Origin: Phoronis australis
Taxonomy: Eukaryota; Animalia; Phoronida
DNA length: 64,000 bases
Direction: 5' to 3'
Assembly (NCBI GenBank): GCA_002633005.1
Contig: NMRA01000180.1
Span: forward strand, 146,125-210,124
Shown here: positions 1 through 35,927 of the stretch, piece after piece
Position numbering within the stretch: the first letter of the stretch is position 1
Layout: each line of letters starts with the position of its first letter
Translations under genes and position numbers: made by a program
Notes under the pieces: model-generated
Seen by the model: only the letters and a program-made list of their open reading frames with translations
Database searches by the model: none
Told to the model about the DNA's origin: nothing

Positions 1-454
1 GATATTAAGTGGTTGTACGTAGGTGAATTTGGTCGCGATTTTTCGCTGACAGGAATCCAGTACGTCAATCTGAACGAGAACGACAGAATGTCTGTGCGAG
101 AAGGAGATGTGCCTGCCATTTACAAAACGACAGGAGAAGTTCAGGTTGCGTCGTCCGTTGTCAATGTGGAGTTCCAAATAGGCACGACGAGTGCGTTTAC
201 CAACAGAGCTTCATATCCCTACGCATTTTCTAACACTGACGTCACCGGATCAGGAAAGCACGACTCGTTGTTAAATCTTTATATATCCCGGTTTATGTAC
301 GTCACTGCTCCTGTTGGTGTTTTAGAGAGAAATGCATCAGACATCGAAAACGTCACAGTTACTGTGAGCAACTCTATTAACTCGGAATCTGCCTCAACTT
401 CGGTGAAAGTACAAAAACCAATCTCTGGTTTACAGCTCAATGGGTCATACATTG
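1..454 (+). CDS. Exon 1 in window (5'-truncated): extracellular region ending in a PKD-like strand
   Basis: Open frame from base 1; ends ...ENVTVTVSNSINSESASTSVKVQKPISGL; donor g|gtaagc at 455, phase 1. Confidence 0.85.
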
Positions 455-3400
455 GTAAGCACATTTCAATTTTTTGTTTTTCACAAATTGCTATTTGATT
501 ACACCTTCTTGGACAAACTTCATAAAGCCTCGGAACGTGCGCACGATAACGTCACACGGAAATTGACCAATACTCTGATGAATGACATTAATTGTATTCT
601 CTAGAGCTGCACCTGCTGATTCAACCTTCCCGTTCGTGCTGGATCAGCCGCATTTAATCAATAGTCTTGAACATTACATTGGTTCTCAGTGACAAATTCA
701 AGCATTCAAATCAATCAGTGATTCTTTCAGGATCAAAAATCTGAAAAATAAGATCATTTTGAAATCACGTAAAATCACGTGAGTAAAAGGTGAATGTTTA
801 GCGAGTACGGTTGAGATCCCACAAAGCGTACCTTAGTGAAACGACGGCCTCTAAAATGTCTCGTCCATGACGTTGATATGTAGAATAATGAAAAAAGACT
901 AGCTGATTTTATTTTATTATTGTGGGTTTATCGACGCAAGTGCTTCCTGGGTTTCTCGCGTGTCTTTCGAACACAGCCCAAGGATGCGTGTCGTACTACA
1001 TGTAGTGTGATCACTTTTTTAAATGTAATGCATGGTGATATGTCACAAAACATGTGTGCTTTTGCTGTCTAAGTCGGTGATAATTGAAACGAGCCCTTTC
1101 GAATAGTTCCATCGTTCACTCGGGTCCAGCAAGCTGCTGCGGTAGCCTACGGAAACAACGTGTCATTTACGTGGTCTCCCGGCGATGTAAATTCAACAGA
1201 GGAGACTGTTGAAAGTGAGGAATTAACAGCAAAAGCCGAGTTCGTCTACACCGCAGCAGGAGTATACGAGTGGAGATATAGAGCGTGGAACATGATCAGC
1301 TCAGAGGAGGCTTCGGTAAGATGAGGGCAAAGTAAATGAAGTTAGTTGTCACTAGTTTGGTAAAGCTAGGAGTTGCATTAAACATGTACACGAGACAGAC
1401 GCATGTCACACCATTCACTCACTCTCAGTTCTACAAAACATGTTACCAAATTGAAACTCTTTTGCGATGACAAGTTTGCGACTGGTACCACATTGTCAGA
1501 CTACGTCAACTGTGTGATGACGTCAAGCGAGCCCTGGTGTGTTTCGTAAAAAGTGACGTGAGTCTTATGTCAGAAACTTGGTCTTACCCTCCACACACCA
1601 ATTCTTGAAAAATGATTAAATATCAAGTCTTCTACATGGGGGGCGCACAATAGGGGACTGGGGGGCTAAAGCCTTCTATCCACTTTTTTCAGTGCTACGC
1701 CGCACATGATCTATAGGCGGTGTGCTAGAGGGGGTGCTGAGGGGGCTTTAGCCACCACTTTTTTCAGTGCTGCGCCGCCCATGTTTTAGAATATGCACCT
1801 AAGTGCTAGTTGTTGGGAACATGTTTACAAATTATTTCTAAACTATGACGCGCGCTTATAATTAACTAGCCAAATCTTTGATCAGGAACTATCAAGTAAG
1901 ACTAAATTCCTGTCTTAAATCATAAGCCACTTTTCATGAAACAGGTCCCTGGTGTATTCTTCCTTAAAGAGGCCTGGAATGTGATAAACTAAGACTAAAT
2001 TGCAATATTGAAAGTGGTTCTCTGCCACTGAAACAGAATTCAACCTGCTCACCAGATATTTTATTGTTTGGCCGTAGATATGTAAAATCTGTTGATATCA
2101 AAGCATTTTTAGTTCCAAATTTGAAAAAAGAGATCTGTCAACTGCTCGCTACTTCGTCGTTTTTACACCAACAAGGCAAAGCACGTCCCCTTATTTCATA
2201 TGGCAAGACGTAGATATAAATGTAGCATATTTCCCTTATATATGCATATATACGAACGCAACGGAATAAACAATGTGAACAATGAAAAGTGTCGTGCATT
2301 TAACAAATTCTGTATATATAAAATTATATATATGTGGGAAATGTGACCTTTGACCTCAAGTGAATTCAAGCAATTGACTGTTAGCGCATGTGCGCATTTA
2401 TCATAAGTGGGAGTGAGATTGGAAACTCTGTGGTTACCACGCAATTTTTCCTTCGCGCGTATTTTGAAAAATCGTGAATTTTATGATTTTTTCTAGAAAT
2501 TTCCTCTCAGAATACTCACAGTGTATGTGGCACTTCTTTTAAGTAAAAACATTAAATTATAAGATTGCAATTTAGTCATTAACTTGAAAAGAAGTTTTAG
2601 CAAAATTAAGATTCGGTAACACTGGCTAACTCACGTCAATATCCACTCTGTTTACTGCATTCCCATAGGGCAGGGTGTATTTTCAAGTCTGGTTTCGTGA
2701 CCAATCAATGGAAATTATGAAATACCTCACTGTCAACTTTTTCAGCAAAATATTACTGTTGAAGATTTACTGTTCAACGTTAGTGTCTCCCCAACGACCT
2801 TCCCGGCAACTGTTAGAGGACAGCTCACGATGATAAGAATTGAGAAAAGCCAAGGTACTTATTGAAGCGTCACGAAAATCTAGGTCTGACAAATTTCTTG
2901 GTTTTTAAGGTGTGAAGTCTTAGATAGGATGTTATTTGTAGCTGTTTTGACTGGGAAACGCTCGTTTAGTTTTCAACAACACAAGTGCTCCTAGTTAGAA
3001 GTGTTTGACATTTCTTAAACATTAAGTGTGGTTCTAGCAATGAAAAATAATTTGTATCATTTCAATGCACAATTAAAGTTACAGACGGCTTGCTTGTTTT
3101 TGTTGACACAGTTCTCACTTGTAATGCTACATGTCCGCATATTAAATTTAACTTGTTAAATGCATTTATAGTTATTATTTTGACATTTGTCACTTTATTT
3201 TGACATCAACCCTTAGGGTTTATTTTTAAGTATTCCCATACTGCCATGATGACGTTTTTTCCATGGCCATCTTGCAGAGTCTTATTTAGTTCTTTCTATT
3301 TACGTCATAATAAATAATACTATTCGCAATCCTCCTCTTGTTTTACTCTGCAACATAGCTCGTGGCGTACCCCGGGCAAAATAGATTACGATAAATGTGC

Positions 3401-6400
3401 TTTTATGTCACAGAAAGAGGTGGTAAAAGTACTTTCTTATTAATTTTGAGGTCTGGTGTCATGCACATACTGCTCATTACAATGTTACTGTCTTTTAAGG
3501 TGAGCCTGCCGACTTCATCGTGGACCTCGGGGATTCTACAGTTGTGAAAGGTATGTTTACCACTTAAACAACTGACAGATCATTGGTATTTTGGTAGTAA
3601 ATAGCATTACGTAGTGGATATGCCAGTGCAGGTCGACGAGCGTTATGCTTTAATATAGGCTAATGTACATTTTACGTGCGCCATTTCATTTTTCCTCGAT
3701 TATTTATTGCAGTGTGATTTAATGCCCTGTTCATTCTACATCACTATTTTACAGCAGTTTGTCATATTTTCAGCTAAATGAGTCACTAGCGCTGGGATAT
3801 TTCCGCGACAACAATATGGATTGTACAATAAGCAGCAATGGACAAAATCCGTTGGTCTAGTTTTCCACAAACTTATTCTAATGACACAAATACAGCTATG
3901 GAGATATTCTGGAAAGAGTAATGCACCTGATAGAAGGACCAATAAACGTTAGGTGGCCAAATTCTATGAGACTGCAAATGTAATTAATTTCAATGAACAG
4001 GCATCTTTCAGTCAGAACCTCCAACGATATAATGTCTGCAGGAACAGCTTGAGGAATCGCCTAGAAAACCATGTCCCCGTCTGACACAAGAACTTAGCAT
4101 TTGAGAACCTTAGTTATGGAAATGTAGGAATACAAATTTTGCAAAGGCAAGTTGGCATCAGTCAGGCTACCAGGAAAAAAGAAAAGGTCTACTACAGGAG
4201 TTCTCGGAAACGAGTATGCTGACTAAAACAGGTCAATCTTTGTGACTTCTTGGTGTTTGCTTCACTCCTCGACTTCTTTTCTATCAGATTCGCTGGTAAC
4301 GTCAAATCTTGCCTGTATTGTGGTTCCGTTACAACAATTTTTTGGAACCGTCGATATCAGCGATTTTTGTCCACCGCTGCTTTGCGTATTGCCGAATTTT
4401 GTTTATACGTCTGCGCCTTCTGAAATATGTGGGCACTGTTGTGAAACACAAACTGGCGATGAAGCATGAAATATGGTGCTTTTGGAATTCCTTGTAGAAA
4501 AATAAATTGGACGTTTGCACCTCGTACAAATGAGCAGTTTAGGCGGCAAATCGGAGCTCATACACGGTGCCAGGGAGGAGCGACAGTGCAAAATCATGAT
4601 TACTCTGACTCCTTATTGGTTAACAGAACATTCGGACATCTTGATAGGTTGGAAATTGGAAATCACATCAGGTGTAACTACTTGTGACCAATCTGATAAC
4701 AGACCATTTCGCTAAAATAATCTCGGACATTNGATGTTTGATTCACTCCTCGACTTCTTTTCTATCAGATGCGCTGGTAACGTCGAATCTTGCCTGTATT
4801 GTGGTTCCGTTACAACAATTTTTTGGAACCGTCGATATCAGCGATTTTTGTCCACCGCTGCTTTGCGTATTGCCGAATTTTGTTTATACGTCTGCACCTT
4901 CTGAAATATGTGGGCACTGTTGTGAAACACAAACTGGCGATGAAGCATGAAATAAGGTGCTTTTGGAATTCCTTGTAGAAAAATAAATTGGACGTTTGCA
5001 CCTCGTACAAATGAGCAGTTTAGGCGGCAAATCGGAGCTCATACACGGTGCCAGGGAGGAGCGACAGTGCAAAATCATGATTACTCTGACTCCTTATTGG
5101 TTAACAGAACATTCGGACATCTTGATAGGTTGGAAATTGGAAATCACATCAGGTGTAACTACTTGTGACCAATCTGATAACAGACCATTTCGCTAAAATA
5201 ATCTCGGACATTAGCTATGTTGGTATTAACCGTATTAAACACGGTTAAAGCTTTCAAATATTTGAAAGACGTCTGTATTTAAGCGGAAACTTTCACTTCT
5301 GCGTGTGGTGGCTTTTTGAGAGAGTATATTTCTAATACCGGAAATTAACATCGTCAGTACGGTTAGATTAAATCGATCTATTCCACCCAACTGCGTGATC
5401 GCTGACGGTAACAAGGCGTCCATACCAAGTCATGGGCACTACGGCACCGACACACTGGAAACTGGGTGTTTCATTACATAACATTGTACAGTATTACTCC
5501 TATGGTTGTGGTGCTGTGTAAGAGTGTTGCCGCCAAATTATCAAACGACGCCCACAATGCTGAATTGCAATATACACGCACGCGCACGTACACTAAACCA
5601 TGGCATGCGCACTTAGGCCCTAGACACACGGGCAATTCTCGCTAAATAAGTTCATAAGGTTGGTAGTATACAAATTGATTGTTTCTTATTTTCACAACCA
5701 CAAAGGCATTTATAACTTGACAGTTTGTTTTCCTCTCAGCAGCCATCTTCCGAAGGTACTGGACACTAGGTGGCGTGGTGATGAAGCTGTTCCAAATTTT
5801 AGGCAACTGAAATACCCTGCATCGTCTCTGTTCATAATTGGGTCACTTTTCCTGACTCATATAGACTCTCTTATACGTCTAGATCTTAAACTATTTTCCC
5901 ACTCAATAGGACAAGCATCATCCCAGTTAATTACATAGTTACAACCAAGCTCATGATCAGTCACTGCAGATTTGTTAATAGTACTCTGAGACCATGCCTT
6001 CTCTAAACGTGTGGCCCTGAGATAGCTCATCCACATCTTTTCTGTGTTCGTTAAGCCTGATTGAAAACTCATGCCCAGAGGATGATCCGGGAATTTCTGT
6101 ATGGCATGTCAATGACATAGACTTCGTACACTGCGAGTACATTGTAACTTTGTTGTAGCGTTGTGTACGAGTTCAGCAAAATGCGACTAATGTGGAAAGA
6201 TTGAACAAGTGCACAATATTACACTGCCCGGTGTTTATAAATCTTTTTCACAAGTAAGCAGGAACAAACTTTATTTAAAGGAGAATGCCACCCGATTTAA
6301 TTAGTCTTTTTTACTTTTTTAATTGGTCTACATGTATATCCACATTCCTCTTAAACGGTCGACCTCACCTTGCCGAGAGGTGTCGCATTAACCTGTGAGG

Positions 6401-9400
6401 AAGGTGAGAAATGACGCAGCGACGTCAGTGGTTCGTCTGCAGAGTGAATGCCGCTATATTGCAATGTATCGTTCCCGCTTGTCCGAACTATGAAGCTGCG
6501 AAGAAAACGAGTTTAACGTTTTTTCGACATCCTCGAGAGCCCAAAATGCTTAGCAAGTGGCTCGAGGTAGTGAAGAATGAAAGATAGGTTGTCAATAGCA
6601 AGTATGAGGCCGTGAAACCTCACCGTGTCTGAGGCCGGCATTTCGTCGACAGTGATATCTCTGACAAATCCTGGCTTACCAAAGAACTATCCATATGTTC
6701 CGTTGCATGTGCATGTTCACGGTGCCTCTGTAGTATTTTGATCAGTGTATTCCGGTTCGAACTGATAGCCTGTGAAACCTAACGATCCGACCCGTGAGCC
6801 TGAGCTCTTGACTAAGTCGGGATTGGAGCGGGGCCAGTTGCCGTTTATTAGTACACGTTTATTATTCTGGGTTCTGTTTCGAAATGAATTATTCTCAGCG
6901 TAACCAATGCTTATATGAAACTGAAACAAAATCTGTCTCATTAGATACAAATTGTAATGCCTTGGAGTGCTCGTGATTGCAAATGTTTTGAAAAGCCAGT
7001 AATGAATAAACCACTGCGTTACCGGCTTTTGATGCCGGCAACAAAGGTAATTGACCAGGTACCGAGGCCGTGTGAGCGCATGCTTATTCAGTGTTTGGTG
7101 ACAGAAAGCTGTTGTGAAGCAATTACTCGATTTTATATGCTATGGTCACATGTTAGGGGAATCTTTATTTAGAAATACAAATACATTATTCAAATCAATG
7201 TTACTGTACAACCTTTGCCCTGACCGTCTGTGGAAGGGAAACCCGACATCAAAGCCCCCGTGTGAAACCAATTACGTCATTAGATAATTATAACACCTCT
7301 GTCTACCGTCAGGTGTCAGGTAACGCAACCGAACGTGCCGTTGTCGAGTAGAACTACTCGATCTAACTTGATACAAAATAGGTTGCTTTTTGGGTGGCAT
7401 TCTCCTTTGATAATAAAAGTGAAGGAAAATTTAACTCAATGCAATTCAGTTTGTTTCTATTTTCAGTCACTAGCGACAACTTCACGATATCTGGTGACCC
7501 CGAGGAAATGGTGTTTCGACGCAGGACTAATATGACCTTACTTTCATCGCCCATGGAGACCATTACGGGAGGTACATTGTACTTTTTGTTTTACATTGAG
7601 GTACAATAATTTAAGCGACTTCATTGGACAACAATTCACATATAGCTTTTGAATCTGTCAGAATTCCTTTTACCACTGAGGAAAGACTTAGAATTGCGTT
7701 CAAAGTATTCCAGAGGAAGCTTCAGAGTGGGCGATGCCTTAAGGGAAACCGTGTTAAAACGCTGTCGTGATGGGTAATGCTTGAGTTCCTACAATATGTT
7801 AAAAGCATCATACTGGCCACACTGAAGTCGTAAAATGGCTCAAAATGGCATATTTGCCTGAGTTTGAGTGTTCAAGCAAGTCGTGTTTTATTGTGTTGCT
7901 AAAGGACCACCTAATACAAACAGAATTGCAAAAGTCTGTTCGATCGACGAAGCCTTTGAGTCTTACAGTGAACTTTTTGCGAGACGCATATTCGGGTTTT
8001 TCTTAGTATGTCCACGATTGTCAAAGTATGTCGGGAATCGTGTTCTTTGATTGTTATCACGTCTGCGTTGCGTTTCAGTAATTCGGCGCTTTGTTAGCGC
8101 TGTTAGTCTCACCTTTTATAAAATAACTTCTCTTCAGTTCCTAAGTACGTAGACCATGTCTGTTCACATAAAGTGGCATAAGCTAGTACTACCTCAACCA
8201 ACAATTGGTTACAATAGCAGTAGAACAAGTTAACACCGAGAGTGAAGTCGATTAAAAGGAACAGGTTTGTGCCTATTTCTCTAAAACATTGAAATATGGA
8301 CAACATGGACGTACCTGCCACTGGTGTCTACAACACAGAATGCGATTATTTGCAGCCACCTTTCGCGTCTGTCTACGTAAGTGCTTGCTGCATCCTGAAG
8401 ACAACTTTAAGTGCAAGTCGTTCGAGTATAACAGAACTTCCAATAATTGCTACTTGAGAAATACAACTATAAACTGCAATAACAGCTGTATCGAACTTAG
8501 GAGAACGTGGGACTCAGATGTGTATGAGCTAAAGGAAGGTGAGTCGTTTGAGTTTATCGTTATCGTAAAAATTCGTCCATACATTAGTCTATTTGCTGGT
8601 CTGTACTCATAGTTAAGCAGATGTTAAAAGTCGTCTCCGACGAGCAATTAATAAAATTGTGAAATGTAACGCAACGAAAGTCCGTTCAAAAGTGTACTAA
8701 AATCCCAAGCTTCGAGCATTGGAAGTGTTGGCGTTCGTTTGAATACAAATTAACTTCTACACTGTATGTATGGATTTGTAGTGGTTAAATGATAATGAAC
8801 CCTCGTTTTGGTGATTTCAACCGATCCTCGTTCTGTCAACTGCTAATGCATCGTTGGCGGACTTGAGTTATAAAAGCAAGTTTTACCTAAAAACTCAAAT
8901 TCTCTGTCATGGATTAAATATTATGGTTCTCGGTGGGTGGTTTTTCCTACAGGTGTCATGTAACTCGCTTCAGGCGTAAAGCACACATCACGAATTTTTG
9001 TCCGACCGGTCGGAAATTGGTCGACGACCGGTCGACGACCGGCCGTCTAGCTGACCAGCAGCCGACTAACAATGGTCTGCTGGGAGCCGTCTGCTGAGTC
9101 GCCTCCGCGGTCGGCTCTTGGGTTGGCAAAGTGGTCGCCTAGCATAGACGATCAATTCGGATTATGCGTTTCCTCGGTCGGCAATTGACTTAGCGGGTGA
9201 AGTTTGGCCAAACAAACATACATTTACCTATTAGCTGTTCGTTCACCAGTAGCCACTCCAGTCTTGACATCGGTTTATCAATTTTTGTTCAACTATTGAA
9301 AGGGGGTAAAATCGAATCAACCTACAAATACGAATTGCGTGAAATTGCACCAACGTAAACGTTATGTTGAATTGCGGACGGCGTGGTAAAATTAAACGTT

Positions 9401-12400
9401 AAATGATTACGTGGAAACATAATTTCGCACTCTAGATGTGAAACTTTTATGAATTATGCATAAAAAAGTATCCACAACCAGGAAATTTGAAATGTGTCAG
9501 TAAATTTGCATACAGTTCCAGGGCAGTAGGAAGTGGGGGAGGCGGGGCGGGCACGGGCCCTCGCAAAAATTTTCAAACGTCTGGGTTAAACCGTGGCAAC
9601 CCCCATAGGCGTGGTGCCGGGGACAGTGGAAAATAGAAAGGCTGCAAAAAACGGATAACACAGAAAACTCAAGACAACATTTAACAAATCTGCATCAGTG
9701 CATAGTTTACCTTTTGAGGACCCAGGCCAGGACATTGTCGTTAGGGTCTTCGCTTTTTCAGCACAGGTCGACTAGACGAACACATATATTTCGAAAAAAA
9801 CGAGAGAATTTGTAAAGCGAAGTTTTTGCAGGGCGTACTAATTTACTGTTTGTTTAAATTCAATAAGTCAATTTTGTGAATGCAAAACTATATTTTTCTA
9901 GAGGCCCCTCTCTGGCAAGGGATAACGGTCACAACTTTCGCTTTATTTTTTTCTCGAAACTGTATATCACTTGCGAAAAATTGATGACCTGACAGATAAC
10001 ATCAATTGCCGCGCATTTCTTGATATTTGAAAATACAGAAATTTTCATATTGAGGGGCCCCGCTTTTGAACGAGGCCATTGATGCCATTCAATTGGCCAC
10101 CTTTTTGTGTTTTTATTAAGAAATTCTTACGGGGCCGCTCACGATGAAAGGGTCCAATGTTGGAATCGATTACCTCTATTTTCCTGTTTTTGTGAAATCG
10201 TGCTTTCATGTTGAAGGAAGCCACCTCCCGCATCGTTTTGGACCACACGAGGGTGTAATGAACTGTCACTTTTTCCCAAGCTTAATGATGTTTAGGCTTT
10301 CATCTTAAGGTGTCCCATTTCAGAAGGTACCCTCTCTCGTTGGAGCTGTAGGGGAAATGTCCCTTTGTCCCACTATGTACATGTATATCTGCGCGTGCCG
10401 GACAAGTGTACACAGGCAGTATATCTACGCGTTCAAGACAGGTGTACACAATCAATTATGGTTGATAAAATATATTACAAATGATTCTTTAAAATAGATT
10501 AATTTCGACTATTTCTAAGAATGGTATGACATGTTTTAAGATGTTGACAAGAATTTATATTAACAAAAGGTGTATTATAAGATCTAAGTTTCTCATCAGC
10601 CCTAGTAATTTATACGAATTTTTGTCACTGACCAAAAAACGATCCGTAAATGATGATCAGACTGATATATGTGAACGATGATCAGTCTCATCAGAATTCA
10701 TATCAACCAAAATGGAGGTGTAAGATTTTTACACAAGCATTACTTATCCTAAGGTCAGAAAATATGATTAAAACAGTGAATAAGATGAACTGTATACTCA
10801 GTGTCTATTTTGTTACGTACAAGGTCATTAAGATTGACGGTAAATATAAAGGGCAAAACTAAGCCTTTGAACTATCAAGGAGCAATGCATACAGAAGTAA
10901 GCAACAGTCAGGGCACGGACTTCTGTGTACATCCTGAGGGGCGTACATGTAGCTAGGATGGAGGGAGATTTGTCTCATGGGGATCACTCTCCTGAGGTGA
11001 GCAGGGGCGGATACAGGATTTTGATTTAGGGGCGACCAGGGCGGACATTCGCACCCCCGAGATGCCAAATGGAATCTGTGAGAATTTTAGGGGGGTATTG
11101 CCCCCTTGTCCCCTACCCCTAAATCCCTCACTGCTTACGTAAACTTTATGAAACTGGACCAATTAATGGGCTTTTTGCACACTTGTCAGAGTCAGACAAA
11201 TGAGTTGTTGTGTCACGTGACCATCACGAGGAGGTGCTTATAAAATTAGGTAGCCTCGTATAGCAAGGCGTCCCAGTGAGTGTTTGAAACGTGCAAGTAT
11301 CGCCTGTTGAGTGACCATATCTGACGAGTGCAGTTTTCAAATGCATATTCTATGCTACTGTTACTGAGTGCCGAAGCGTGTCAGTTTGCGTTCTTTCCAG
11401 GAATAGTCATGAAAAAATGCATGGAAAACTATGCCTCGACATTGTTGTTCTCAATGCAGAAAAAAAGAATCATTATCAGATAAATACATGCAAGGTTGGG
11501 TTGGATAAATTTAATTCAACCGACATCACAACAGTCGCGTTTCAGATTACACTCTTTCCAAGAATCGTCATGAAAAATGCATGAAAACTGTGCAGGGTAA
11601 AGAATCGTGATCAGATAAATACATGCAAGGTTGGTTAAATTTAATTCAACCGACATCACAACAGTCGCGTTTCAGGTTACACTCTTTCCAAGAATCGTCA
11701 TGCTTGAAAACTGTGCCTCGGAGTTGTTGTTCTCAATGCAGGGCAAAGAATCGTTATCCGATAAATACATAAGTACACAAACTTTCTCTTGTACTACACA
11801 AGGTTGGCTGCATTCAATTCAACTGACATTACAATAGTCGCGTTTCAGTTTGCGTTCTTTCCAAGGATTGTCATGAAAAAATGCTTGAAATGCTATTCCC
11901 AGAAATTGTTGTTCACAATGCTGGGTCACCCAGAATTGTTATCAGTTTTCTGTGTTTTTGATTTTTTGGCCCCGTTAATTATCCTCAGAAATTTCAGGCA
12001 ACATTTACAATTTCTATTTATTATTATTACTGAGATCATGAATGAGTTAATCCATAACACAAACTATTTCACTGTCCAGCAGCTTCTATAATTTTTACAA
12101 TACCACAAAAATGAGAACATTTTAGCATCAGAAATATTACATTCAAGTAAGTCAGGCCTGCGAACGTCTGATACAACGTGTATCAGACCGCCTGCAATTA
12201 TATATTTTAAGTCAGGCAAACACATTTTGATTAATAATCCACTGGTGCCACCTGCCGCCCCGAAGTGTTGTACCAGAGGTTTCCAGTTTAATACCATCCT
12301 GCAGCCATCTTATTACTGCATATGAATTTATGTAATTACATCACGTTTCGTCCCTTGTAATTACTAAACGTAAATCGAAACATCAGAACGTTCTAGAAAC

Positions 12401-15400
12401 CATGTGTAGTTAGTTGTTGCAACAAAAGGGGGATTACATATAACAAACTTGACAAATATCCGTGGCGTTGGCGCAGTTGGATTTTGGAATTAAATGCTGA
12501 ATGACGTCAACATGAACTTTTGTCTTAAAACGCTACGAAATATTGCCACAAGTCAAACTTTAATAATTCTGCTAAAACTAAAGATTGCTTTAAGGTATTT
12601 CAATAAACACAATATACATTCATTGACTGGCCGTAGTTCGGCGGGAAATGACGTGGTACGACGATGATAACTGGTATGGAACCGGTAACTCTCCCCTACA
12701 TTTGATGTACAACGTGGCACTGACTGAATGCATCAAACAAACATGGACTTTTTCAAAACACCGTGTTGGCCATATTTGTGTGGAAAAGCGAAATGAACAA
12801 ATATCTGTACACGCTGCTCAAAACACTTTTGTGGACATACGGAAACGAACACGTCGTTGTCTTAGAACGCTGCATTTCTGACAAAGCACTCTTGTGCTGG
12901 AAGTTTTTTTAAGATTGAGCACTGTTCCAATAATTGTAGCTCTTGTTACAGCTGACCACAGAAGAATGATTCTGCGATTTTAGGACTGAAACTGAACCAA
13001 ATCTGACATGGTGACTCATTAGAAGGTGCGGTACTCGGGGAGAGGGGGGGGGCAATACAAGCGTGATATTTTTATTTTGGAGCCATAGTTGCCAGATATC
13101 ATTCAGCGTCACTTACTACCAAAGGAGGCCAGATCATGCGCTATAAACATCACCAGACGCTTTGCTTCACAAAACGTGTACCTTGGTGTATTTCCTTTCA
13201 TTTTTTCGACATCGCATTCGCTTTACCAAAGATTCACGCATAAGTGCCGCGTAGAGACAAACACCTCTTCACCACATATTCGTATCTTCCCGTTTTATTT
13301 TATACAATTTGTCAATATGTTGTTGGCAGAAAATATTTGTTTTCGGAACAACGTCAACGACCGACTGATACACGTAACTAGAGCAGATTTTACCGTCACC
13401 GATGCATAAAAACGGAATGCGCAAGGCTAGAATGGGTAGTAGCCTCAATGGCGGATTTAGGGGGTTGCCAGGGGGGCCATCCCCCCTATAATTCTACCAG
13501 ATACCATTTGGGAGTTCGGGTGCCAATTGCTGACTAACACATGAATGAACAATGCATAGGCATGAACAAACCCCTGCTGCATCCCCACGCTATAGGCTGG
13601 GCGGGCTCGATTGTCGAAATTTTGATTATTCCTGTACATCTGTATGAAAATGAAATATTTTCATTCGTTTTCATATATCATTTGATACCACAATATTAGC
13701 TTGAAATGGCAGATACAACCATGTAATAACCCATAACTATCTCACTAGTGAGATAACGATTTGGCGGGAAACCGAGAACGGGGTCGAAGCCGGGACCCTT
13801 ATGAAGTGCTGCTCGCCGACTTTACCACTACGCCACGCAGCGACTGCCGTCCTTAGGAGCGAAAATAGAATACTTAAATGAGCCCGCGCAATAATCCCCT
13901 GTTCAACAAACCGTATTGCACTGTATTTATACGCTACGAAAAATAAGACACATAATTTCCATAAAAATGATATCTTAATTCGGTGAATTTTTTCTCTCAT
14001 GTCCTCTTACTTGTAAATCACCGATCTCCAGTTTGAATGCGGGTATCGTGTCGTCAGGATCTTTGACTTGAGAATTATATCCAGTTACCAGTGGTAACCT
14101 ACTTTAGCAGACGATAATTTCCCGGTCGAAGCTTAGCGTGAAAAAACGTGTTTTAAGCTATAATAGTTGGTAAACCTTAATTTATAAATTCAATAATTCT
14201 TCAAAATCCAGTCGGGCTCTAGATAACGGGGGATAACGACTTCGCCATGTAATAATCTATATGTATTCTTAACAACGGTTTTTTTTAATTTATGTATTCG
14301 TATATAATAATTGTATATAGACTTCTTTGTATTTTTTACCCAGATCTAATGCCTCTCGGCGCTTTCTGGGTTATGTATATTCATTGTATTCTGAAGATTT
14401 CGTAATAAACATTAAAAAAAATTATTCCTGTGCCCTGCCCCCNNNNNNNNNNNNNNNNNNNNNNNNNNNNNNNNNNNNNNNNNNNNNNNNNNNNNNNNNN
14501 NNNNNNNNNNNNNNNNNNNNNNNNNNNNNNNNNNNNNNNNNNNNNNNNNNNNNNNNNNNNNNNNNNNNNNNNNNNNNNNNNNNNNNNNNNNNNNNNNNNN
14601 NNNNNNNNNNNNNNNAACACAAAATCCTGGATTCGCCCCTGAGCCTCAGTAAAGGTCATTCCGTGTTTGATGTCACTGTCTAAGTTCGTGGAAGTCGTAA
14701 CCATATGATTTCGAAGTTAGAGCCTTCCAAGTACGTGGTATTATGCCATAAAGTTCCGTGTATTTCGCGTCTTTACTGCAAGAGTTAATACTGTGAAAAC
14801 AAAATCTCTGGAGTAAGAGCTCTTCGGTACAACAACTCATTCCCTATCCCATCATCATGGGCGCGTGATAGGAGACCCGTGAGGAATTTTAAAAACGCAA
14901 AAAGATGCAGTTCAACGTAACACAAACAAAAAACAAGTGTGGACGAAGACTGTAAAAAATAGCTGCGTTTACAAAATGACTACGGCGTTGTATTGACCGG
15001 GAAGCAGCCAGTCTAATGCAACTTGTTACTGTCACGAGCCAAAAGATCAAATGTAAAGAAAACTTTAAAATTGTGTATTCCAAAACTTGTTGCATTGTCC
15101 GTAATCCAATGTTCAATATTACCGCTTGCCTCCAACCTTCGTGTACTCATGAAATGGAAACAGTAAAACAAGTTAACTTATTTGACCCTGTGCCGAGACG
15201 AATATCGGCGTCTGCACGCAAAGCGGTATCAGCCTGACAACCTATTACGCAAATGCTACTCTGGCCTAAAAATAGAAGCCGACGAGCGGGTCGGTTTATG
15301 GCCGGTCGGCAATTAAAGGAGCATGCCACCCAAAAAACAACCTAATTTATATCAATTTAGATCGAGTAGTTCTACTCCATAACGACACGTACGGTTGCGA

Positions 15401-18400
15401 TACCTGACACATGACAGCAGACGGAGGTGTTGAAATTATCCAATGCCGTCATCGGTTTCACACGCAGTCTGTTCAGCAGTTCACAACACGGGTTACTGGT
15501 GTCAGCTTATCGCTTGAAGTCATCGTTTAACACCAATAAATCATCAAATGTTGATGCAAAACCCTTGAAAATACACCGAGCTCTTATAAAAACGTGTTGT
15601 TTTATTTGGCTGTTACGGGTTTACTGGTATTTGGACACACCGAAGCTTAGGCCTACAAAGTTCGGAAGACCAATTTATCAAGGTCCGTAGCACTAAGGAG
15701 TTTGGGGTCTGTTTGGAGATAAATTCGAAGTATTCTTCCGTGAAATACAGACAGGAGAACCTAGATCTGTGTTGTTATACTTGTGATTTTGCGAGTTCTA
15801 TTGGTATTTGGACACACCGTAGCCTACAAAGTTCGGCACGGGCCAATAAGGTCCGTAGCAGGAGCTTGGGGTCTGTTCGGAGATAATTTCGAAGTATTTT
15901 CCGTGAGATACAGACACGAGAACCTAGATCTGTGTTGTTTGGAATTGTGAGTTTTGAGTTCTAAACACAAAACGCTTGTTATCCTGAGCCGTGGCTCGGA
16001 GCCCGATCAGGCCCGTCGCGGCCGGCCGGATTGACTCCGCCGTTATCCTGGCCAGTGGCTCGGAAACTGATCAGACATCACGAACATAAACCAGACAAAG
16101 TTCAGTGGAAACTAAACTTACAGTCAAAAAATACTATCCTAGTGAGCCAAAGTAATGTGCACGGTGATTATGTTGGTGAATTAGCCACGAAACTGCAAAT
16201 CTACTTACTCGTCGGGGGCCGCAAATTCACTGAGGTTCCGCTTTGGCCACAGCACCGTCAGGGCAGAAGTTGTACATTGACAATCATCATTTGAGTAATG
16301 TTAATGTAAATAAAGATTCCCCTAACACCTGGCCGTGGGATGGAAATCGAGTTGTTTCACAACAGTTTCTGCCAGCAAACACTAAATTAGCATGAGCTCA
16401 CACGGCCTCGGTGTCCCGTCAATTAGTTTTATTACACCTAAAGCCGGTAACGCATAGATTTATTCATTGCTGGCTTCTCAAATCATTTGCATTCACGAAC
16501 ACTCCAAAGGCATTACAAATTGCATCTAATGAGACAGACTTTGTTTGAATTTTATAAAATTATTGGTTAGGGTGAGAATAATTCAGTTGAAACAGAACGC
16601 TCAGTTACGAACATGGCAACTCGCAATCCCGACTTAGGACGAGCTAGAGCTCGATCAGTCCCGACTTCGCAGGTGGATCGTTAAGTTTTACAGATTATCA
16701 ATTCGAACAGGAATACAGTGATGAAGAAATACTAGAGAAGCGCCGTGAACAAGCTCAGACAACGGAACGTACGGAGTTATTTGGTAAGCCGACATTCGTC
16801 AGGCACTGTCGATGTCTGCAGGCCACAGACACGGAGATGTTTCACGGTCTAATACTTGCTATTTACAGCGTACATTTCATTCTTCACTACCATGAGCCAC
16901 TCCCTAAGCATTTCGGACTCTCGAGGAAGTAAAAAACGATATACCCGCTTTCCTCGCAGCTGCTCAGTTCGGACAAGCGGGAACGATGCACCGCAACATA
17001 GCAGCATTCACTCTGCATATGAACCACTGACGTCGCTAGCGTCGTTTCTCACCTTCCTCACAAGTTAACGCGAGGTAAGGCCGACTGTATAGACCCTATT
17101 CACGCCGACAGGAGGCGCGTTCCAAAACGAGGCTCGCTACGATAGCTCTGTTAGATGAGTCTGTGTTTCAGTCCGTGTTGTTCCGCGAACGGCTAGAAAA
17201 AATACGGACACGCAACTGCCTGCTTTGCAATCTCTAAAGACATTGAGATTCGGAAGCGTTGGGTCGTTGCCATACGCCGCGACGAAGCAAAACTTTTATG
17301 TCCGTGTAAAATAAAATGTTTTCGAAAAGTTAGATCATATTTTGTAGCATCTCGGTCAGTTGTCAAGCATCGTATTAACGACCGGTAATGGGCTAGCCAG
17401 GCTGTATTTTCATGACTACGGATTTTAGGGGGGGGGGGCATGGTCCTCCTAAAATTGTATCAGATCTCATTTTTGATTTCGGGTGCGAATTGCTGACTAG
17501 CACACGTGCGCAACCAGGGGATCTTGGGGGGGGGTGAAAGTAAACGCATAGGCGCTGAATGAACCCCGTTTACCGTTTTTTTTTTTTAGTCAACAGGTCC
17601 GCAAACCCACGAATTCAAGACCCCTGCATCCCCAGATTTTAGGCTGGACGCGCATCTGCCGAAATGCTGCTTATTCCTGTGCCCTGCCCCCCCAACTCAA
17701 AATCCTGGATCCGCCCCTGCTACGGGTTGAAACATTGTAATTTTTCTTTCCAAAAAGGACAGGGCCCTCAATCCCTCAAATTTGGGGCCCAATATCGGCC
17801 CTATTCCCCTCTCAAAAATATTGAAATATCACGCGAAATTCCCCCAACGAGGTATAAAAATCTAGTGAAAAATCTCTCTGAGTTCACATCACCTGTAACC
17901 ACACAGGTGTCAATTTGTATGAGCACGGCACAAAAGGCTACTTTAAATGGAGACAGAGCCTATGAGAGCTTGCAACAGGGGGGTGCTATTGATGGTGATC
18001 AGAGGTAGATTGTTCCCGCCCTCACTCGGCGAAAAAATCGCCTCTCAGTAGGCACTGGCACCTTTCCCCTCGGATGAACGAGGTTCCTGCAGAAACATGA
18101 TAAACTATGATTGCATTGTCCGGTTAACTGAAATTGAGTTCTAAAACGAGGTTATGTTTTGGACGAACGAATTAGGTGTTTTAATTTTAAAATTCAACTT
18201 GGTCCAGATTGATATTTGAAATCACATGAAATAGACGTAAGAATTATTACAACCAAGAAAGCAGAATTGATGGTCAAACAATTTTTATTTTCAATTACGA
18301 GCCAGCTTTATTATTTTAATAAAAAACATATTTAATAACATCAATTATTCTTTCAGATCAATGACAAATCAACTGTTAGTCTCAGTGAGTGCATAGGATC

Positions 18401-21400
18401 AGGCTATACTTGATGTTAATATTCTTGATCAACAAATTAAACCACGAGATGTGGCTAATTGCACATGACAGCCATCACTGTCAAATATGTCTTCAACTCG
18501 TCAACAATACGAGCAGATGACCTGGTCCGCGTAGAAAGTATTTTGATCAACAATTTACAAGAAAAAACGTAACCCTGCATTCAGCATAATACCTAATCCG
18601 TAACACTACGATCGCTGCAATTTGGTCATATTTACTTTTCATGTTTCGAACCTAGTTTTCCGAACAAAATTAAACCCTTTCGTCAGACAACTCTTTGGCG
18701 CCTTAACTTGTTCTCTAATGTAATTTTCTACGTCTCTGTGGTTAATTGTCGACACATCATTAAAATTCAATATCCAGGTTGGACTCGAAAGACCGGCTAT
18801 TTAACTCACGCAATGTCTACTTTCGCTTTGTTTATCGCAGTGNNNNNNNNNNNNNNNNNNNNNNNNNNNNNNNNNNNNNNNNNNNNNNNNNNNNNNNNNN
18901 NNNNNNNNNNNNNNNNNNNNNNNNNNNNNNNNTTTGATTTTAGAATGTTTGCTTTCTCGCCTATTCTCGAGCTATTGCGCAGCTTCACTGCGTCCATGCC
19001 AAGGAACTACGTTGGTGCTTGAGTGTTTTGGTTTACGTACTTCAGGTTTTAAAAGATTTTAATTGTGGTACCATTGCAAATTGTAATCCATAAGAATCCC
19101 CCGACGATGTTTCACTCCAGCAACTGTGATTAACATGTACACGTAACGAGAATTTGCAGATGCAGTAGCTAAGATTTTCGAATTACTTTCAGAACTCTTC
19201 AGTGTCGACATTACAAAGAACTTGTCTCCTGACAAATACTCAAGTTCATCCCATCTCTCTACTGACTACACTCCCGGTAACGCAAAACTTGACAGTTCAA
19301 GAGCTTGGAAACCATTAGGTTCAGATTTAGATCCTTTCGTTCAGGTAATAACCCTTAACTCGTTCTTGCATGCCCTGATAATTTCATTTCGCAGCGTTAA
19401 AGTTGCTATTTGTCGGTCTTCAAATACATGCACATGTAGTTAAGTGAGCTATTTCAGTCATGACGATTTTAGGAATCTACGTGTACTAGTTGGATTTTAA
19501 GTGGCACAGAGAGTGAAAACAGGAACGATGTGAGCAGGCGACTGTGTCGGCAAAAAAACATACTTCATGTTAGGTTGCATTATTAGTATACAGCATGTTC
19601 GTATAACAAAACGTTTTGGTTGGATTTGAAATAAGTGTTAGGCTGATTTCGAAGGGACTTCAATTAATCTATTTATGATGGTTGACACTAGCGAGGTCTA
19701 AACATGGCTGCCTGATCACAGTGCGTCGGAATTTTCATCGGTAAATCTTTAATGTTTTTAGAGTAGTGAAACTGTTCTTTCAGGAACCACGCCTTGGATC
19801 AATGATTTGGGTAACCCAAATGAACGAGCCCAATCAAAATTAGCGTTGTGCATGCGAATTTGTTTCACCAGGAGGCCTCTACCGTTGTGTACGGATTGGC
19901 TCTACTTTCCCTTATTTCACGGTTTACAAGTACATCATGGATTATTGAATGCCCTACAGTACAATAACATATATGGGATAAGGGATTTTACATTTAATTT
20001 TAATCTAATATGATTGTGGTTTGGGAAGTATTGGAGAAACAAAAAACTTGTATAAAATTTTGGAGTTTGCTTTGTAATAGTCATCAGAGTTCATGTGACG
20101 GGTTGCATGAACAGTCCCAAACAGGGACTCGAATAAGTTTTCTAATTTTTTTGCCTATTTGTGTTTTTTCTATACTCTATAATGACAAACGTAATACTAT
20201 ATTTTTCCATGATTGTATCTTTATTATGAGACCCTTTTTGACTAATGGCATTTTTGATAACATAAATAAAAACTGAAAATATTTAGGGACTTATTCCTTA
20301 AATTAGGGGTGTTGCATGAAACGATCCCTATTTATTTATGATAATATTGAGAATTCACCATCAAGTTCACTCTCCATATGTATCAAAACCAAAACTTGAC
20401 TTAGTAATGAAACTAAAACATCATAAGAAAAGACTGTCGGTGTTTTCACAAGTCCACAAATACGCAGTAGATTTAGGGAACTTAGTTGGCTCCCTGTTTA
20501 GGACTGTTTCATGCAACTGGCCTCTAAAATGCAACGTCTGTTGATGGACATTAAGTACCAGAAGCGATTCTGTGAAATGATCCATCGTCTTGTGTACGCA
20601 GAGCTTCAAGTAGTTATAACATTTTTACAGATTGAATTGGAAAGAGCGTCGCTTATAATTGGGATTACCGTTCAAGGAGACGGGTCCTCCAACTGGGTAA
20701 CGAGCTTCACTGCTGAGTCTCGAAACGTCGGAGAGCCTTGGCACCATGTTGACAACGGAATGGTCTGTGATTTATCGTTCAACACTTGTTATTTTGAATA
20801 AATTTAACGAATTCACTACGTTGGGCTTCTATGTAGTGAATGCCGTTCTAAAACTAGTCACTTGCTCTCATAAGATTAGAATTTATATAATTTGTGGGCT
20901 ATGGAAAAAGTGGGTTTCCGCTAGTGCATGACAATCAGAAATTTGAGTTTATCCAAATGTTATGGCTTTGCTCGGCGGTTGTTACGTAGCATACTTAAAC
21001 AGGTTTTGTACAAAACTTTAAAGCTTATCCGCTGCATAATTTGATGCATGATATCGAATGCGTTGTTAAACAATGGCATCTTAACGCGTGATAACTTGGG
21101 TATTACTTGGGTGCAGAACCAGCGTCATCACACTCGAGGCAGACCCATAGATTCTCGGCTTTCCACGTCATCAAGTCAGACAAGGTTCTTTGACTAACCA
21201 CTCCAACCAACTGCTGATTACACAGTCGTCTTGCCCGGCCATGCAACCGACTTTCAGCACCACAGTCTCTCTCATATCCAAACAGCTGCATTCTGTCAAT
21301 TGCATTTCCATTCTCCCGTGGCTCCACCTCTCTAAGCGCTCCTAGAATCTCACTCTTTCCCAATCTGAGGGCACCCTGTATCGGTGCATTTCCCGCTAAC

Positions 21401-24400
21401 TTGTCAGCGTGATAATGTGATGTTATTTTTTTATACAAAATGCAACTTCTTTACGCCCAGACCCAGGATGATAAAGTAAACATCCTCTGTTCTGTTCAAA
21501 TTACGTTCACAACAATTCGCTATCCCAATAAAATTGTACCTTTAAAAAGGGACAGTTGCAAAAAGTAGGCTCCGTCGTCAGTTTCCACTATCTCTTAAAA
21601 AGCCTTAGCCTCGTTCTTACCTCCAGCGTCCAGTCGGCTTCGTGCAAGTCGCATTTTTGAATGCAATTGACTTCCGTAAGGGGTACCTTTGGTGATTTGG
21701 CTTACATGAGGGCACTGACCTAATCATATGCAAGTCCATGTTCGCGTTAGGAGCCACGAATGGTAGGGACACGGCATCAATTTGATTCTGTTCCGATTTG
21801 TATGCATACGAATAAGGGTGAAATAGTCAGTTTTTTTTCAAAAAAAAAACACCCATCTACAAGGGAATATTGAATGGCACTGAGATAAGCAAACAGTCCA
21901 TGCATTGGTGTGGTTTATCTCCTTCGTTATGTCATTTAAAAAGAGTGGTGACTGAAATTCTTTCCTTGGCTCCATTCATTTGGGAGTGTCACACCTGTTG
22001 GGGCCGGGGCTCACGCTCGTCTAACGGGATGAATAAACACATATACATCGCAATATCTGTCTTTCTTTTGAGAGTTCCTGATGAACATTTTTCCTGATAA
22101 CATTTTAGTGCACTGAGAAGGAAATCGTACCTCATGAAACATAGATTTGGATGAGGTTTTGATAAATACCACTGAGGCAAAGGAGATTTGCGATATTTCC
22201 TCCTATGCTGCTAACTTACCACCCGGCATTATAATGATATTTTGGTCAACTACCACGGGTAACGTTTTGATTTCCCCAGTTTAGACAAACTCGTGTTCAA
22301 AGTGATTACTATCTGCACTAACACGTCTGGTCTTTAAATGGTTATTTACGGACAAGTTACGCGTTTAGTGCGCCGACAGCGTGTTAGGCGCACAACATGA
22401 TCCTTGTTTCCTAGCAACAGCAAATCGGTTGAAATTACCAAGCATAAGAATCACTTCTAATCACATTAAGAAATAAGTTAAAACCAGTTTTGCAACAAAA
22501 AGCGTCTAGTACGTTAAAAGTCTGACGTATGACGGGTTCATTGCAGCTTTAAATGATATTAACAACGGCTTCCCACCCCTATATCTAAAACCGAATAATG
22601 CGCTGTAAGCCTATTCAACCTTCCAACGTTTGGATCAAATTTTGAAGTCTACTCAACGTGCAACTGTGTCCAACGCTTTAGGTGAGACAAACGACAGGTA
22701 TGGCGAAACACCGTCTACCAAGAACTGTAATATCCATTCTGCCATATAGCGAGTGTGTGTTAACTGTTGAATAATGCTTTTATGACTCAAATGGGACACC
22801 AATGGCGAACAACTTTTATCTACAGTACAGTATTTGGTGCTGAATTCCAAAAAATAATGTTTTCTCTTCACAGGATTTCCAAGCGAACGTGGACTCTTCC
22901 ACGTCGAAGCAGATAATGCTTGGACAAGCTATACTGTGCCGATATCTAAGGATTAGACCCAAAGGCTATCAGGGTGAAATTGCAGTGCGGATCGGCCTCA
23001 AAGGAGCGACAGGTGAGGTGTTCCGCGTAACATTCTGCTTTGCACATTACACATTAAGCCAAAAAGTTGCATATGTACGAAAATGAATTGCTTAATGCTC
23101 GCAATATGTATTTTGGTACGTGTTAGACGTCAAATCTAGTGTAGAACCGTTAATGTAGCTAAACCATCAAACGCCTTAACTGATACATAAAACTGAGTGC
23201 ATCGTTTATTTTACCGCAGTGCTGTAGTGGTAAAAAAGAGGTAAGTAGGCGCCCAAAGCATGCGCGCACCCAGGGGGAGGAGGCTCGGGTGTGCGCATGC
23301 AAATGCCACCGTATCATCTTGAACGCTGAACGTAACTTACGGTGCGTAGGCGCTACGTTCAAATGCCAAAAAGTAGTTGGATGGGCCTGCGTTCGCCTAC
23401 GCCCCTCCACATCACTGTTTAACCGTAAACATTTATCAAATTGCTTCACGACACTACTTGCCTACAGGTCCATCACTGTAAATTGCAGCACTCGAAAATT
23501 ACGCGTGCTTTAACCGGAATGCTACATGTCTGCTCTCTTATTTTCAGCTACTACGAGTATCTATGATTTCCAATACAAATACGCTGAAAACGGTATCTAC
23601 CAGGTGACTGTTGCTGCAAACAACTCGCTGAGCTCAGCCTCTGACTCTAGCAAAGTGACGGTACAGACAGCGTATAGCGGATTAAGGATCACTTCACCTG
23701 CCATCCGATTTGGCGAGTCAACTCAGCTTCTTTTGACGTCGGTCACAGGATCTGGACCGGCGACTATCACCGCCTCATTTGCGGCAACCGAAGTTGGCAC
23801 AACTAATTGCAAATCAGCTCTTCCATGTAATGTTACGCTCGACGCAGCTGCACATGTCAAATATGGCGACTTCCCATTTACGTTTAGCGTTGCAAACTTA
23901 GTCTCTGACCCAATCACAACCACAGAGGTCGTTTCTGTTGACCATATACTTGCTGACGTAGAGCTTCATCCCACGCAAACAGCAGAAGCAACTGGAACCC
24001 CGGCCATTTTTGCTTTGAAGTTTAAAAGTCACGTTTCAAGATTAAACATAACAGCCGATTTCCGGGACAACACAACGCCAGACATAATTTATGTAGAATA
24101 TTACGACAACCAAACCGTTATATTCATAAATCACACGTTCCTTAACGCAGGTGTTTACGCACCAAAATTCTATTTTAAAAGCCTCGTCACTGATTTCACC
24201 AAAATAACTACCATAACAATCCAAAATGCAGTCGCTAATATATCTTTTACCGATAACGGACCTCAGCCGATTCTGAACAATGATTCATATGGAAACGTGC
24301 ATTTTCAATTTCATTTCTCTGGTAGCTCATTAAGATTTCCAACCAATGCTACTGCCCTTATCGATTACGGTGACACTTTCACCGACCTAATCCTTCTCTG

Positions 24401-35832: not shown

Positions 35833-35927
<95 letters not shown>

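What the first reader, a model, noticed from the sequence alone, without database searches (positions are those of the whole stretch)
3500..23640. PAN + discoidin cassette inserted inside a PKD domain, removable by in-frame exon skipping
Seen: exons 3-4 encode the first half of a PKD repeat ending ...FIVDLGDSTVVK (phase 1). The matching second half (ATTSIYDFQYKYAENGIYQVTVAANNSLS) begins 20 kb later at 23548 (phase 1). Between them lie five exons (711 nt, 237 codons) encoding a complete PAN/apple domain (7467-8538, phase 1-1) and an F5/8-type C discoidin domain (19193-23012, phase 1-1). Splicing 3550 directly to 23548 gives an ordinary contiguous PKD repeat (DLGDSTVVKATTSIYDFQYKYAENGIY). Established: PAN and discoidin are ligand/glycan/lipid-binding modules with N- and C-termini close together, so they tolerate loop insertion, and class 1-1 exon shuffling is a known route for module gain. 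Inference: this polycystin displays two ligand-binding modules from a loop of a PKD Ig-fold, and each can be dropped independently, giving up to four isoforms (none, PAN, discoidin, both). I do not recall this nested architecture in described polycystins; that absence has not been checked.
Basis: partly seen in the sequence, partly recalled or inferred. Interest (0 to 1): 0.88.

Follow-up and report, generated by a model that had tools for sequence, protein, structure and literature searches.

The report
Binding modules nested inside polycystin repeat
In this invertebrate polycystin gene, five exons for a PAN domain and a discoidin domain lie in the middle of one PKD repeat, so the two modules likely hang from a loop of that repeat; related polycystins likely use the same loop for other inserts, and the proposed skipping of these exons is untested.

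Summary
Observation confirmed. Five GT-AG exons (711 nt; PAN 288, discoidin 423; both phase 1-1) lie between two complementary halves of one PKD repeat of an invertebrate PKD1-like gene. Joined, the halves score 46.1 bits on a PKD profile built from homologues; 0 of 300 shuffles of either half reach that. The oyster relative is colinear, and its equivalent repeat has only about 33 extra residues in the same loop, so the cassette is likely a lineage-specific gain. The nested build is probably not unique. An upstream repeat looks split by 206-414 aa at the same loop in three oyster proteins and in a snail PKD1, where the insert includes C-type lectin domains (weak scores); window exon 1 is the end of that older insert. 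Four isoforms are frame-permitted but unshown: no reads on exons 3-4 in four runs. Co-folding is inferred; both folds of homologues failed. Ten paper searches listed no description of the architecture. The scan noted a similar PA14-in-PKD insert in a bacterium (unchecked). Verdict: new variant of a known kind; interest 0.5.

The parts
1..454 (+). Exon 1 of the window (5' end cut off): tail of an older inserted domain, followed by the second half of an upstream PKD repeat that is probably also split
   Evidence: PKD profile 67-91 on aa 117-141; aa 1-104 score 5.9 bits on a profile of the inserted domain from 9 oyster, snail and fish proteins, 0 of 500 shuffles reach it (max 5.7); alignment
1107..1315 (+). 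Exon 2: most of an intact PKD repeat
   Evidence: Pfam PKD 25.7 bits, cut-off 23.5
2746..2854 (+). Exon 3 (phase 0-1): last strand of the intact repeat and start of the split repeat
3500..3550 (+). Exon 4 (51 nt, phase 1-1): strand with the DxGD motif; ends the first half of the split repeat
   Evidence: no RNA reads
6275..7411 (.). Decayed DNA transposon with terminal inverted repeats and a broken THAP-like relic; ends 55 nt before the PAN acceptor; first arm of an inverted pair around the PAN exons
   Evidence: the THAP label is recalled from the motif and comes from no library search
7467..7571 (+). Exon 5 (phase 1-1): N-terminal part of the PAN/apple domain
   Evidence: no Pfam hit alone; assignment inferred from position before E6
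8356..8538 (+). Exon 6 (phase 1-1): PAN core with six Cys
   Evidence: Pfam PAN_1 E 6.8e-06; best PDB hit HGF N domain, E 0.45; Cys count
15312..17073 (.). Second, inverted copy of the same transposon family in the PAN-discoidin intron
   Evidence: 77% over 874 nt and 86% over 153 nt, minus strand; computed duplex -199.7 kcal/mol against shuffled mean -48.9 for the 153-nt arms
19193..19344 (+). Exon 7 (phase 1-0): discoidin N-terminal third
   Evidence: only PDB hit is the CASPR2 discoidin domain, E 0.017
20631..20762 (+). Exon 8 (phase 0-0): discoidin middle; weakest donor of the cassette (5 of 9 matches to consensus)
   Evidence: Pfam F5_F8_type_C 40-82, E 0.017
22874..23012 (+). Exon 9 (phase 0-1): discoidin C-terminal third
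   Evidence: Pfam F5_F8_type_C 86-124, E 0.0086
23548..26964 (+). Exon 10: second half of the split PKD repeat, then further PKD repeats and the start of the REJ module
   Evidence: donor position
27550..57000 (+). Downstream exons of the same gene (REJ, GPS, PLAT, polycystin domain, channel); borders only approximate
   Evidence: tblastn with four homologues placed pieces at 30927-56996; start of the range read from the sequence

Best explanation
Five exons encoding a PAN domain and a discoidin domain lie inside one PKD repeat of an invertebrate polycystin-1-like gene; they were likely gained by exon shuffling into a phase-1 intron, and the two halves of the repeat likely still fold together and display both modules from one loop as a standing part of the receptor. 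Shown: exon borders and phases, open frames, domain matches, complementary halves, colinearity with an oyster gene that lacks the modules. Inferred: the phase-1 intron lay just after the DxGD strand (the C'-E region; strand names recalled), both 1-1 modules were inserted there, and the cassette is normally spliced in. Both folds have their ends close together (established knowledge, recalled), so the host sandwich closes around them. The modules would then act as sideways-facing glycan, protein or membrane sensors on the PKD stalk, much as the C-type lectin of polycystin-1 gates the PC1/PC2 channel (PMC7728438). The loop is likely a family-wide graft site and this cassette one lineage's use of it.
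For: Exon model and phases; only open + frame in 5 of 5 cassette exons, while transposons in the introns have decayed to 77-86%. Half hits 6-54 and 54-90 against one hit 6-90 when joined; 0 of 500 and 0 of 300 shuffles. The cassette-free form aligns end to end with oyster P0001 (7-506 to 388-919, E 1.6e-10); the full form breaks into pieces 7-269 and 521-743. In the alignment the cassette falls where 4 oyster proteins have a Cys-rich loop and 2 oyster paralogues have none. Of 211 full-span PKD hits in the fetched proteins (redundant set), the 8 with most excess length (33 aa) are this very repeat in oysters; 40 have 10 or more extra residues. Upstream split repeats: P0001 16.1 bits, P0019 15.2, P0005 9.6, P0013 8.6, reached by 0-1 of 300 shuffled first halves and 0-3 of 300 shuffled second halves. 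No similarity to the fetched homologues or to the window protein in the 4 introns tested.
Against: No transcript evidence: zero depth on exons 3 and 4 in 4 of 4 runs; depth on exon 10 at most about 2 and no exon-exon joint among those listed. The first half alone scores only 2.4-7.2 bits. No homologue with PAN in a polycystin was found among the 13 proteins scanned against Pfam, so the cassette is known from one genome; only a faint N-terminal F5/8 hit in amphioxus P0035 (E 0.1). Two N gaps (14443-14615, 18843-18932) lie inside the cassette and could hide exons. The discoidin has a single Cys, so the terminal disulfide usual in this fold (recalled) is absent. Borders of the homologue halves were chosen by eye and their scores are weak.
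Confidence: 0.72

Rival explanations
1. Regulated cassette: PAN and discoidin exons are alternatively spliced, giving up to four receptor isoforms. PAN-only skipping might be helped by the inverted transposon pair that flanks exons 5-6 and could pair in the pre-mRNA.
For: All four joins are open. Inverted copies at 6275-7411 and 15312-17073 enclose exactly the PAN exons; one ends 55 nt before the acceptor; computed duplexes are far below shuffles.
Against: Symmetric phase is expected from exon shuffling alone. Cassette splice sites are no weaker overall than those of the flanking exons (donors 5-7 of 9 against 6-7 of 9). The arms are only 77-86% alike and belong to a multi-copy family (high read depth), so the pairing may be chance. 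No junction read either way.
Confidence: 0.18
2. The halves no longer fold together: the insertion broke the repeat, and each half is a linker or pairs with a neighbouring domain or chain.
For: The first half alone is a weak profile match; no structure model could be obtained.
Against: The joined halves score as well as intact repeats of the same protein (31.0 bits against 14.5-44.3) and keep the DxGD and Y-x-Y-x3-G-x-Y motifs, which implies selection on the fold.
Confidence: 0.05
3. The five exons are not part of this mRNA: they belong to a separate interleaved gene, are dead exons, or were placed here by a scaffold misjoin at an N gap.
For: Two N gaps lie between PAN and discoidin; no reads join the exons; the oyster counterpart lacks the modules.
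Against: Same strand; phases match the host intron at both ends; frames intact. The gap-free stretch left of the gaps links half 1 to PAN, the stretch right of them links discoidin to half 2, and the halves complement each other across the gaps, which a misjoin would hardly produce.
Confidence: 0.05

Closest known systems
Oyster PKD1-like proteins (Ostrea edulis LOC125649388 = P0001; Magallana gigas XP_065928761.1 = P0019; Saccostrea LOC134273293 and LOC133182772)
   Same: Best hit of exon 10 (E 1.5e-85); same order of domains around the site; PKD-REJ-GPS-PLAT-channel build; 47-48% identity over about 607 conserved positions.
   Different: The equivalent repeat holds a Cys-rich loop of about 33 extra residues, not PAN and discoidin; that loop shows no homology to the PAN (409 of 1000 shuffles score as high). 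Orthology is only weakly supported (bootstrap 61 for a group that also holds Macrostomum and P0015).
Polycystin-1 proper (PKD1 clade; snail P0013, fish pkd1b P0006-P0011)
   Same: Shares the older inserted domain whose tail is window exon 1. In P0013 C-type lectin domains (2 Pfam stretches) lie between two apparent PKD halves 414 aa apart. The lectin of human PC1 is needed for channel activation (PMC7728438, passages).
   Different: Separate clade (P0013 with fish at bootstrap 100, window outside); lectin instead of PAN and discoidin; a different repeat. The papers read draw the lectin between PKD I and II, not inside a repeat (PMC7728438, PMC3677617, passages). The fish proteins start with the lectin and lack the first half.
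Class 1-1 exon shuffling of extracellular modules (recalled; no paper read on it)
   Same: Both modules begin and end in phase 1 and sit in a phase-1 intron.
   Different: Modules usually land between domains; here the receiving intron is inside a domain.
PA14 domain inserted into a bacterial PKD-like domain (scan note e1-9809492, unchecked)
   Same: A whole sugar-binding-type domain grafted into a PKD-type fold.
   Different: Bacterial, no introns, circularly permuted insert; not tested here.

Membership tests
Polycystin-1-like (PKD1-like) receptor-channel subunits | Tandem PKD repeats followed by an REJ module | tested here: met
   Pfam PKD (7 stretches) and REJ on exon 10
Polycystin-1-like (PKD1-like) receptor-channel subunits | GPS, PLAT, polycystin domain and channel region downstream in order | tested here: met
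   tblastn of P0001, P0003, P0005, P0013 places these regions at 44575-56996 in order (domain positions)
Polycystin-1-like (PKD1-like) receptor-channel subunits | Signal peptide and N-terminal WSC or LRR | not testable with these tools
   The gene starts before the window; no genome is held
PKD1 proper (vertebrate polycystin-1 orthologues) | Groups with PKD1 in a tree of the conserved C-terminal region | tested here: not met
   Window falls with invertebrate PKD1-like proteins and shark PKD1L1 (bootstrap 99), apart from snail PKD1 plus fish pkd1b (100); 14 sequences, midpoint root
PKD domain (PF00801), split repeat | One full profile match from the joined halves, with DxGD and Y-x-Y-x3-G-x-Y motifs | tested here: met
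   Own profiles from homologue repeats; the Pfam model itself was not run on the joined form
PKD domain (PF00801), split repeat | Halves form one seven-stranded beta-sandwich | not testable with these tools
   The spliced protein was not folded; models of homologue regions had mean pLDDT 32
PAN/apple domain (PF00024) | Profile match above cut-off with core cysteines | tested here: met
   26.3 bits against 21.4 on E6; six Cys
F5/8 type C / discoidin domain (PF00754) | Profile match across the whole domain | tested here: inconclusive
   E8 and E9 match consecutive parts (40-82, 86-124), each under the cut-off; E7 matches the start of the CASPR2 discoidin domain; the joined domain was not scanned
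F5/8 type C / discoidin domain (PF00754) | Disulfide joining the two ends (usual in animal members; recalled) | tested here: not met
   Only one Cys, internal
Alternatively spliced cassette exons | Both inclusion and skipping junctions seen in RNA | tested here: inconclusive
   Gene almost unread in 3 raw RNA runs and 1 contig set

The most novel reading that the evidence does not exclude
One loop of the PKD fold is a standing graft site in the polycystin-1 family: this gene carries two nested inserts (an ancient one and a newer PAN-discoidin cassette), and the activating C-type lectin of polycystin-1 itself sits inside an unrecognised split PKD repeat rather than between repeats. Ligand specificity of polycystin receptors would then evolve, and perhaps be switched by splicing, through exchange of modules at this loop without changing the length of the stalk.
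Probability: 0.4. Interest if true: 0.72.

Novelty: new variant of a known kind. Interest (0 to 1): 0.5.

Why it matters
Polycystin ectodomains are drawn as beads on a string. A clean, exon-bordered case of whole modules inside a PKD repeat shows how these receptors could gain new binding modules sideways, and explains why profile scans miss some repeats. It points to a quick test on polycystin-1: if its lectin region is also an insert in a split repeat, the domain map used for ADPKD variants and for lectin-swap constructs would need redrawing. For this organism alone the result is a new domain combination of unknown ligand.

Tried and rejected
RNA: no indexed holder was listed; three raw runs and one contig set under the same species label were offered. 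Laid on 7300-25300 and 2720-3620, nearly all reads were intronic repeats, with zero depth on exons 3-4. Structure: AlphaFold2 on oyster P0001 196-830 (8 rows) and snail P0013 262-985 (5 rows) gave mean pLDDT 32.4 and 31.9, unusable; no fold search was run on them. Complex prediction on the two halves of the oyster upstream repeat: no verdict (0.27, mark 0.34). The deep profile search never ran (queue full; one accepted job failed on profile size) and the protein atlas did not complete, so homologue sampling is thin (42 proteins). Idea that the oyster loop is a relic of the PAN domain (similar Cys spacing): rejected, 409 and 972 of 1000 shuffles score as high. Idea that the inverted transposon pair carried the PAN exons in: not favoured, the first copy has both its own termini and the second was not traced to its far end. 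PDB holds no relative of the inserted region by sequence; the second half alone gave no PKD hit. PMEL/GPNMB as a precedent for a split PKD domain: passages of PMC8273697 and PMC12639109 did not state it. Homologue searches gave 2 and 3 proteins, none with PAN or F5/8 listed. Supplements of papers were not opened and could hold domain tables of invertebrate polycystins.
Full report
What the window is. The + strand carries one long spliced gene of the polycystin-1-like family. Exon 10 holds seven Pfam PKD stretches and the start of REJ, and four homologues place GPS, PLAT, polycystin and channel regions in order at 44.6-57.0 kb. The best of 14 hits of exon 10 is an oyster protein, P0001 (E 1.5e-85). 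In a tree of 8 conserved blocks from 14 sequences the gene falls with invertebrate PKD1-like proteins, not with snail PKD1 and fish pkd1b; its nearest branch is unresolved (bootstrap 61 with oysters, Macrostomum and P0015). No genome is held, so the 5' end is unseen.

Checking the observation. The ten exons from 1 to 26964 splice through GT-AG sites into one open frame. The cassette is E5-E9, 711 nt: PAN 288 nt and discoidin 423 nt, each phase 1-1. In 5 of 5 cassette exons the predicted frame is the only open one on the + strand. E6 passes the Pfam PAN_1 cut-off; E8 and E9 match consecutive parts of F5_F8_type_C below cut-off; E5 and E7 have no Pfam hit. E7's single PDB hit is a discoidin domain. 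The discoidin has one Cys and so lacks the end-to-end disulfide usual in the fold (the norm is recalled).

Are the flanks one repeat? I built a PKD profile from 41 repeats of homologues only. The spliced protein gives two half hits, profile 6-54 (2.4 bits) and 54-90 (19.6 bits); the cassette-free join gives one hit, 6-90, at 31.0 bits, within the range of the protein's other repeats. On the isolated halves the join scores 37.6 bits and 0 of 500 shuffled first halves reach it; the discoidin tail in place of the first half adds nothing (25.3 against 26.0). A second profile of 114 repeats gives 46.1 bits, 0 of 300 for shuffles of either half. tblastn with all fetched proteins and the window protein found nothing in the four introns tested, though two N gaps lie inside the cassette.

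What relatives show. The cassette-free form aligns end to end with oyster P0001 (7-506 to 388-919, E 1.6e-10), whereas the full form breaks in two. In the multiple alignment the 237 residues fall in the loop after the DxGD strand, where four oyster proteins have a Cys-rich loop and two oyster paralogues have none. Among 211 full-span PKD hits in the 42 fetched proteins (a redundant set), the eight longest are this repeat in oysters (33 extra residues) and 40 have ten or more extra residues. The oyster loop is not detectably related to the PAN. None of 13 homologues scanned carried PAN; one amphioxus protein has a faint N-terminal F5/8 hit. So the cassette is likely a gain in this lineage, at a site already tolerant of insertion.

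An older nested insert. Two repeats upstream, oyster P0001, P0019 and P0005 and snail P0013 have what look like PKD halves 227, 227, 206 and 414 residues apart. Joined, they score 16.1, 15.2, 9.6 and 8.6 bits, reached by 0-1 of 300 shuffled first halves and 0-3 of 300 shuffled second halves. These scores are weak and I chose the borders by eye. In P0013, which groups with fish pkd1b at bootstrap 100, the insert includes C-type lectin domains. Window exon 1 is the tail of this shared insert (5.9 bits, 0 of 500 shuffles, maximum 5.7) followed by a PKD second half. The nested build is therefore probably a family trait that this gene shows twice. Human polycystin-1 was not among the fetched sequences and was not tested.

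Skipping. The runs offered could not test it. On 7300-25300 the reads were mostly intronic repeats, depth on exon 10 was at most about 2, and no exon joint was among those listed; on 2720-3620 exons 3 and 4 had zero depth in 4 of 4 runs. Only about a fifth of each raw run was read. This is no evidence for or against skipping. Phase symmetry follows from exon shuffling and does not imply regulation. One new point in its favour: two inverted copies of a decayed DNA transposon (6275-7411 and 15312-17073; 77% over 874 nt, 86% over 153 nt) enclose exactly the PAN exons and could pair in the pre-mRNA; the family is abundant, so chance is not excluded.

Mechanism. Most likely (0.72): a phase-1 intron inside the repeat received two 1-1 modules; they are spliced in as a rule; the halves close into one sandwich and hold the modules out from the stalk as binding sites. 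Co-folding, constitutive inclusion and ligand binding are inferred. The functional model is the lectin of human PC1, which passages of PMC7728438 report as essential for activating the PC1/PC2 channel. Regulated skipping 0.18; halves not co-folding 0.05; separate gene, dead exons or misjoin 0.05.

Literature. Ten searches (listings and abstract starts) gave no paper whose listing describes a split PKD repeat or a PAN or discoidin module in a polycystin. Passages were read in PMC5318412, PMC7728438, PMC3677617, bioRxiv 10.1101/2024.07.17.603829 (68), PMC8846589, PMC8273697 and PMC12639109. Those on PC1 list the lectin as a unit between PKD repeats. The library lacks most subscription papers, so absence is not established. 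The scan's own notes held no look-alike of this sequence but one bacterial PA14-in-PKD insert (unchecked).

Verdict. Real feature, correctly described; a new variant of a known kind. The isoform claim is open, and uniqueness is overstated, but the comparison suggests a general graft site in polycystins that may include polycystin-1 itself. Interest 0.5.

Noticed in passing
window 1-454; P0001 205-526, P0005 163-459, P0013 349-850: An upstream PKD repeat looks split by a 206-414 aa insert shared by oyster PKD1-like proteins and snail PKD1 (with C-type lectins inside); the shared inserted domain has no Pfam or PDB match.
   Followed up: partly
window 6275-7411 and 15312-17073: Inverted pair of a decayed DNA transposon with terminal inverted repeats and a THAP-like relic, enclosing the two PAN exons; could favour PAN skipping or back-splicing.
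   Followed up: partly
window 3141-3396: Short, highly repeated element in intron 3, with reads that go back 254 bases (tandem or circular copies elsewhere).
   Followed up: no
window 4254-5221 and 41297-42860: Two near-perfect tandem duplications (487 nt, 98%; 782 nt, 99%), each with a single N at or near the junction (4732, 42078), and a third short one at 50851-51130 (N at 50935); likely assembly artefacts from merged alleles.
   Followed up: no
P0001 about 960-1060: Another oyster PKD repeat appears to carry a Thr-rich insert of about 100 aa after its DxGD-like motif (read from the sequence).
   Followed up: no
P0035 / P0002 residues 15-103: Amphioxus polycystin-1-like protein begins with a faint F5/8 type C match (E 0.1): a discoidin-like module at the N-terminus, not nested.
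   Followed up: partly
window 19193-23012: The discoidin has lost both terminal cysteines usual in the fold; the host repeat may hold its ends together instead (speculation).
   Followed up: no
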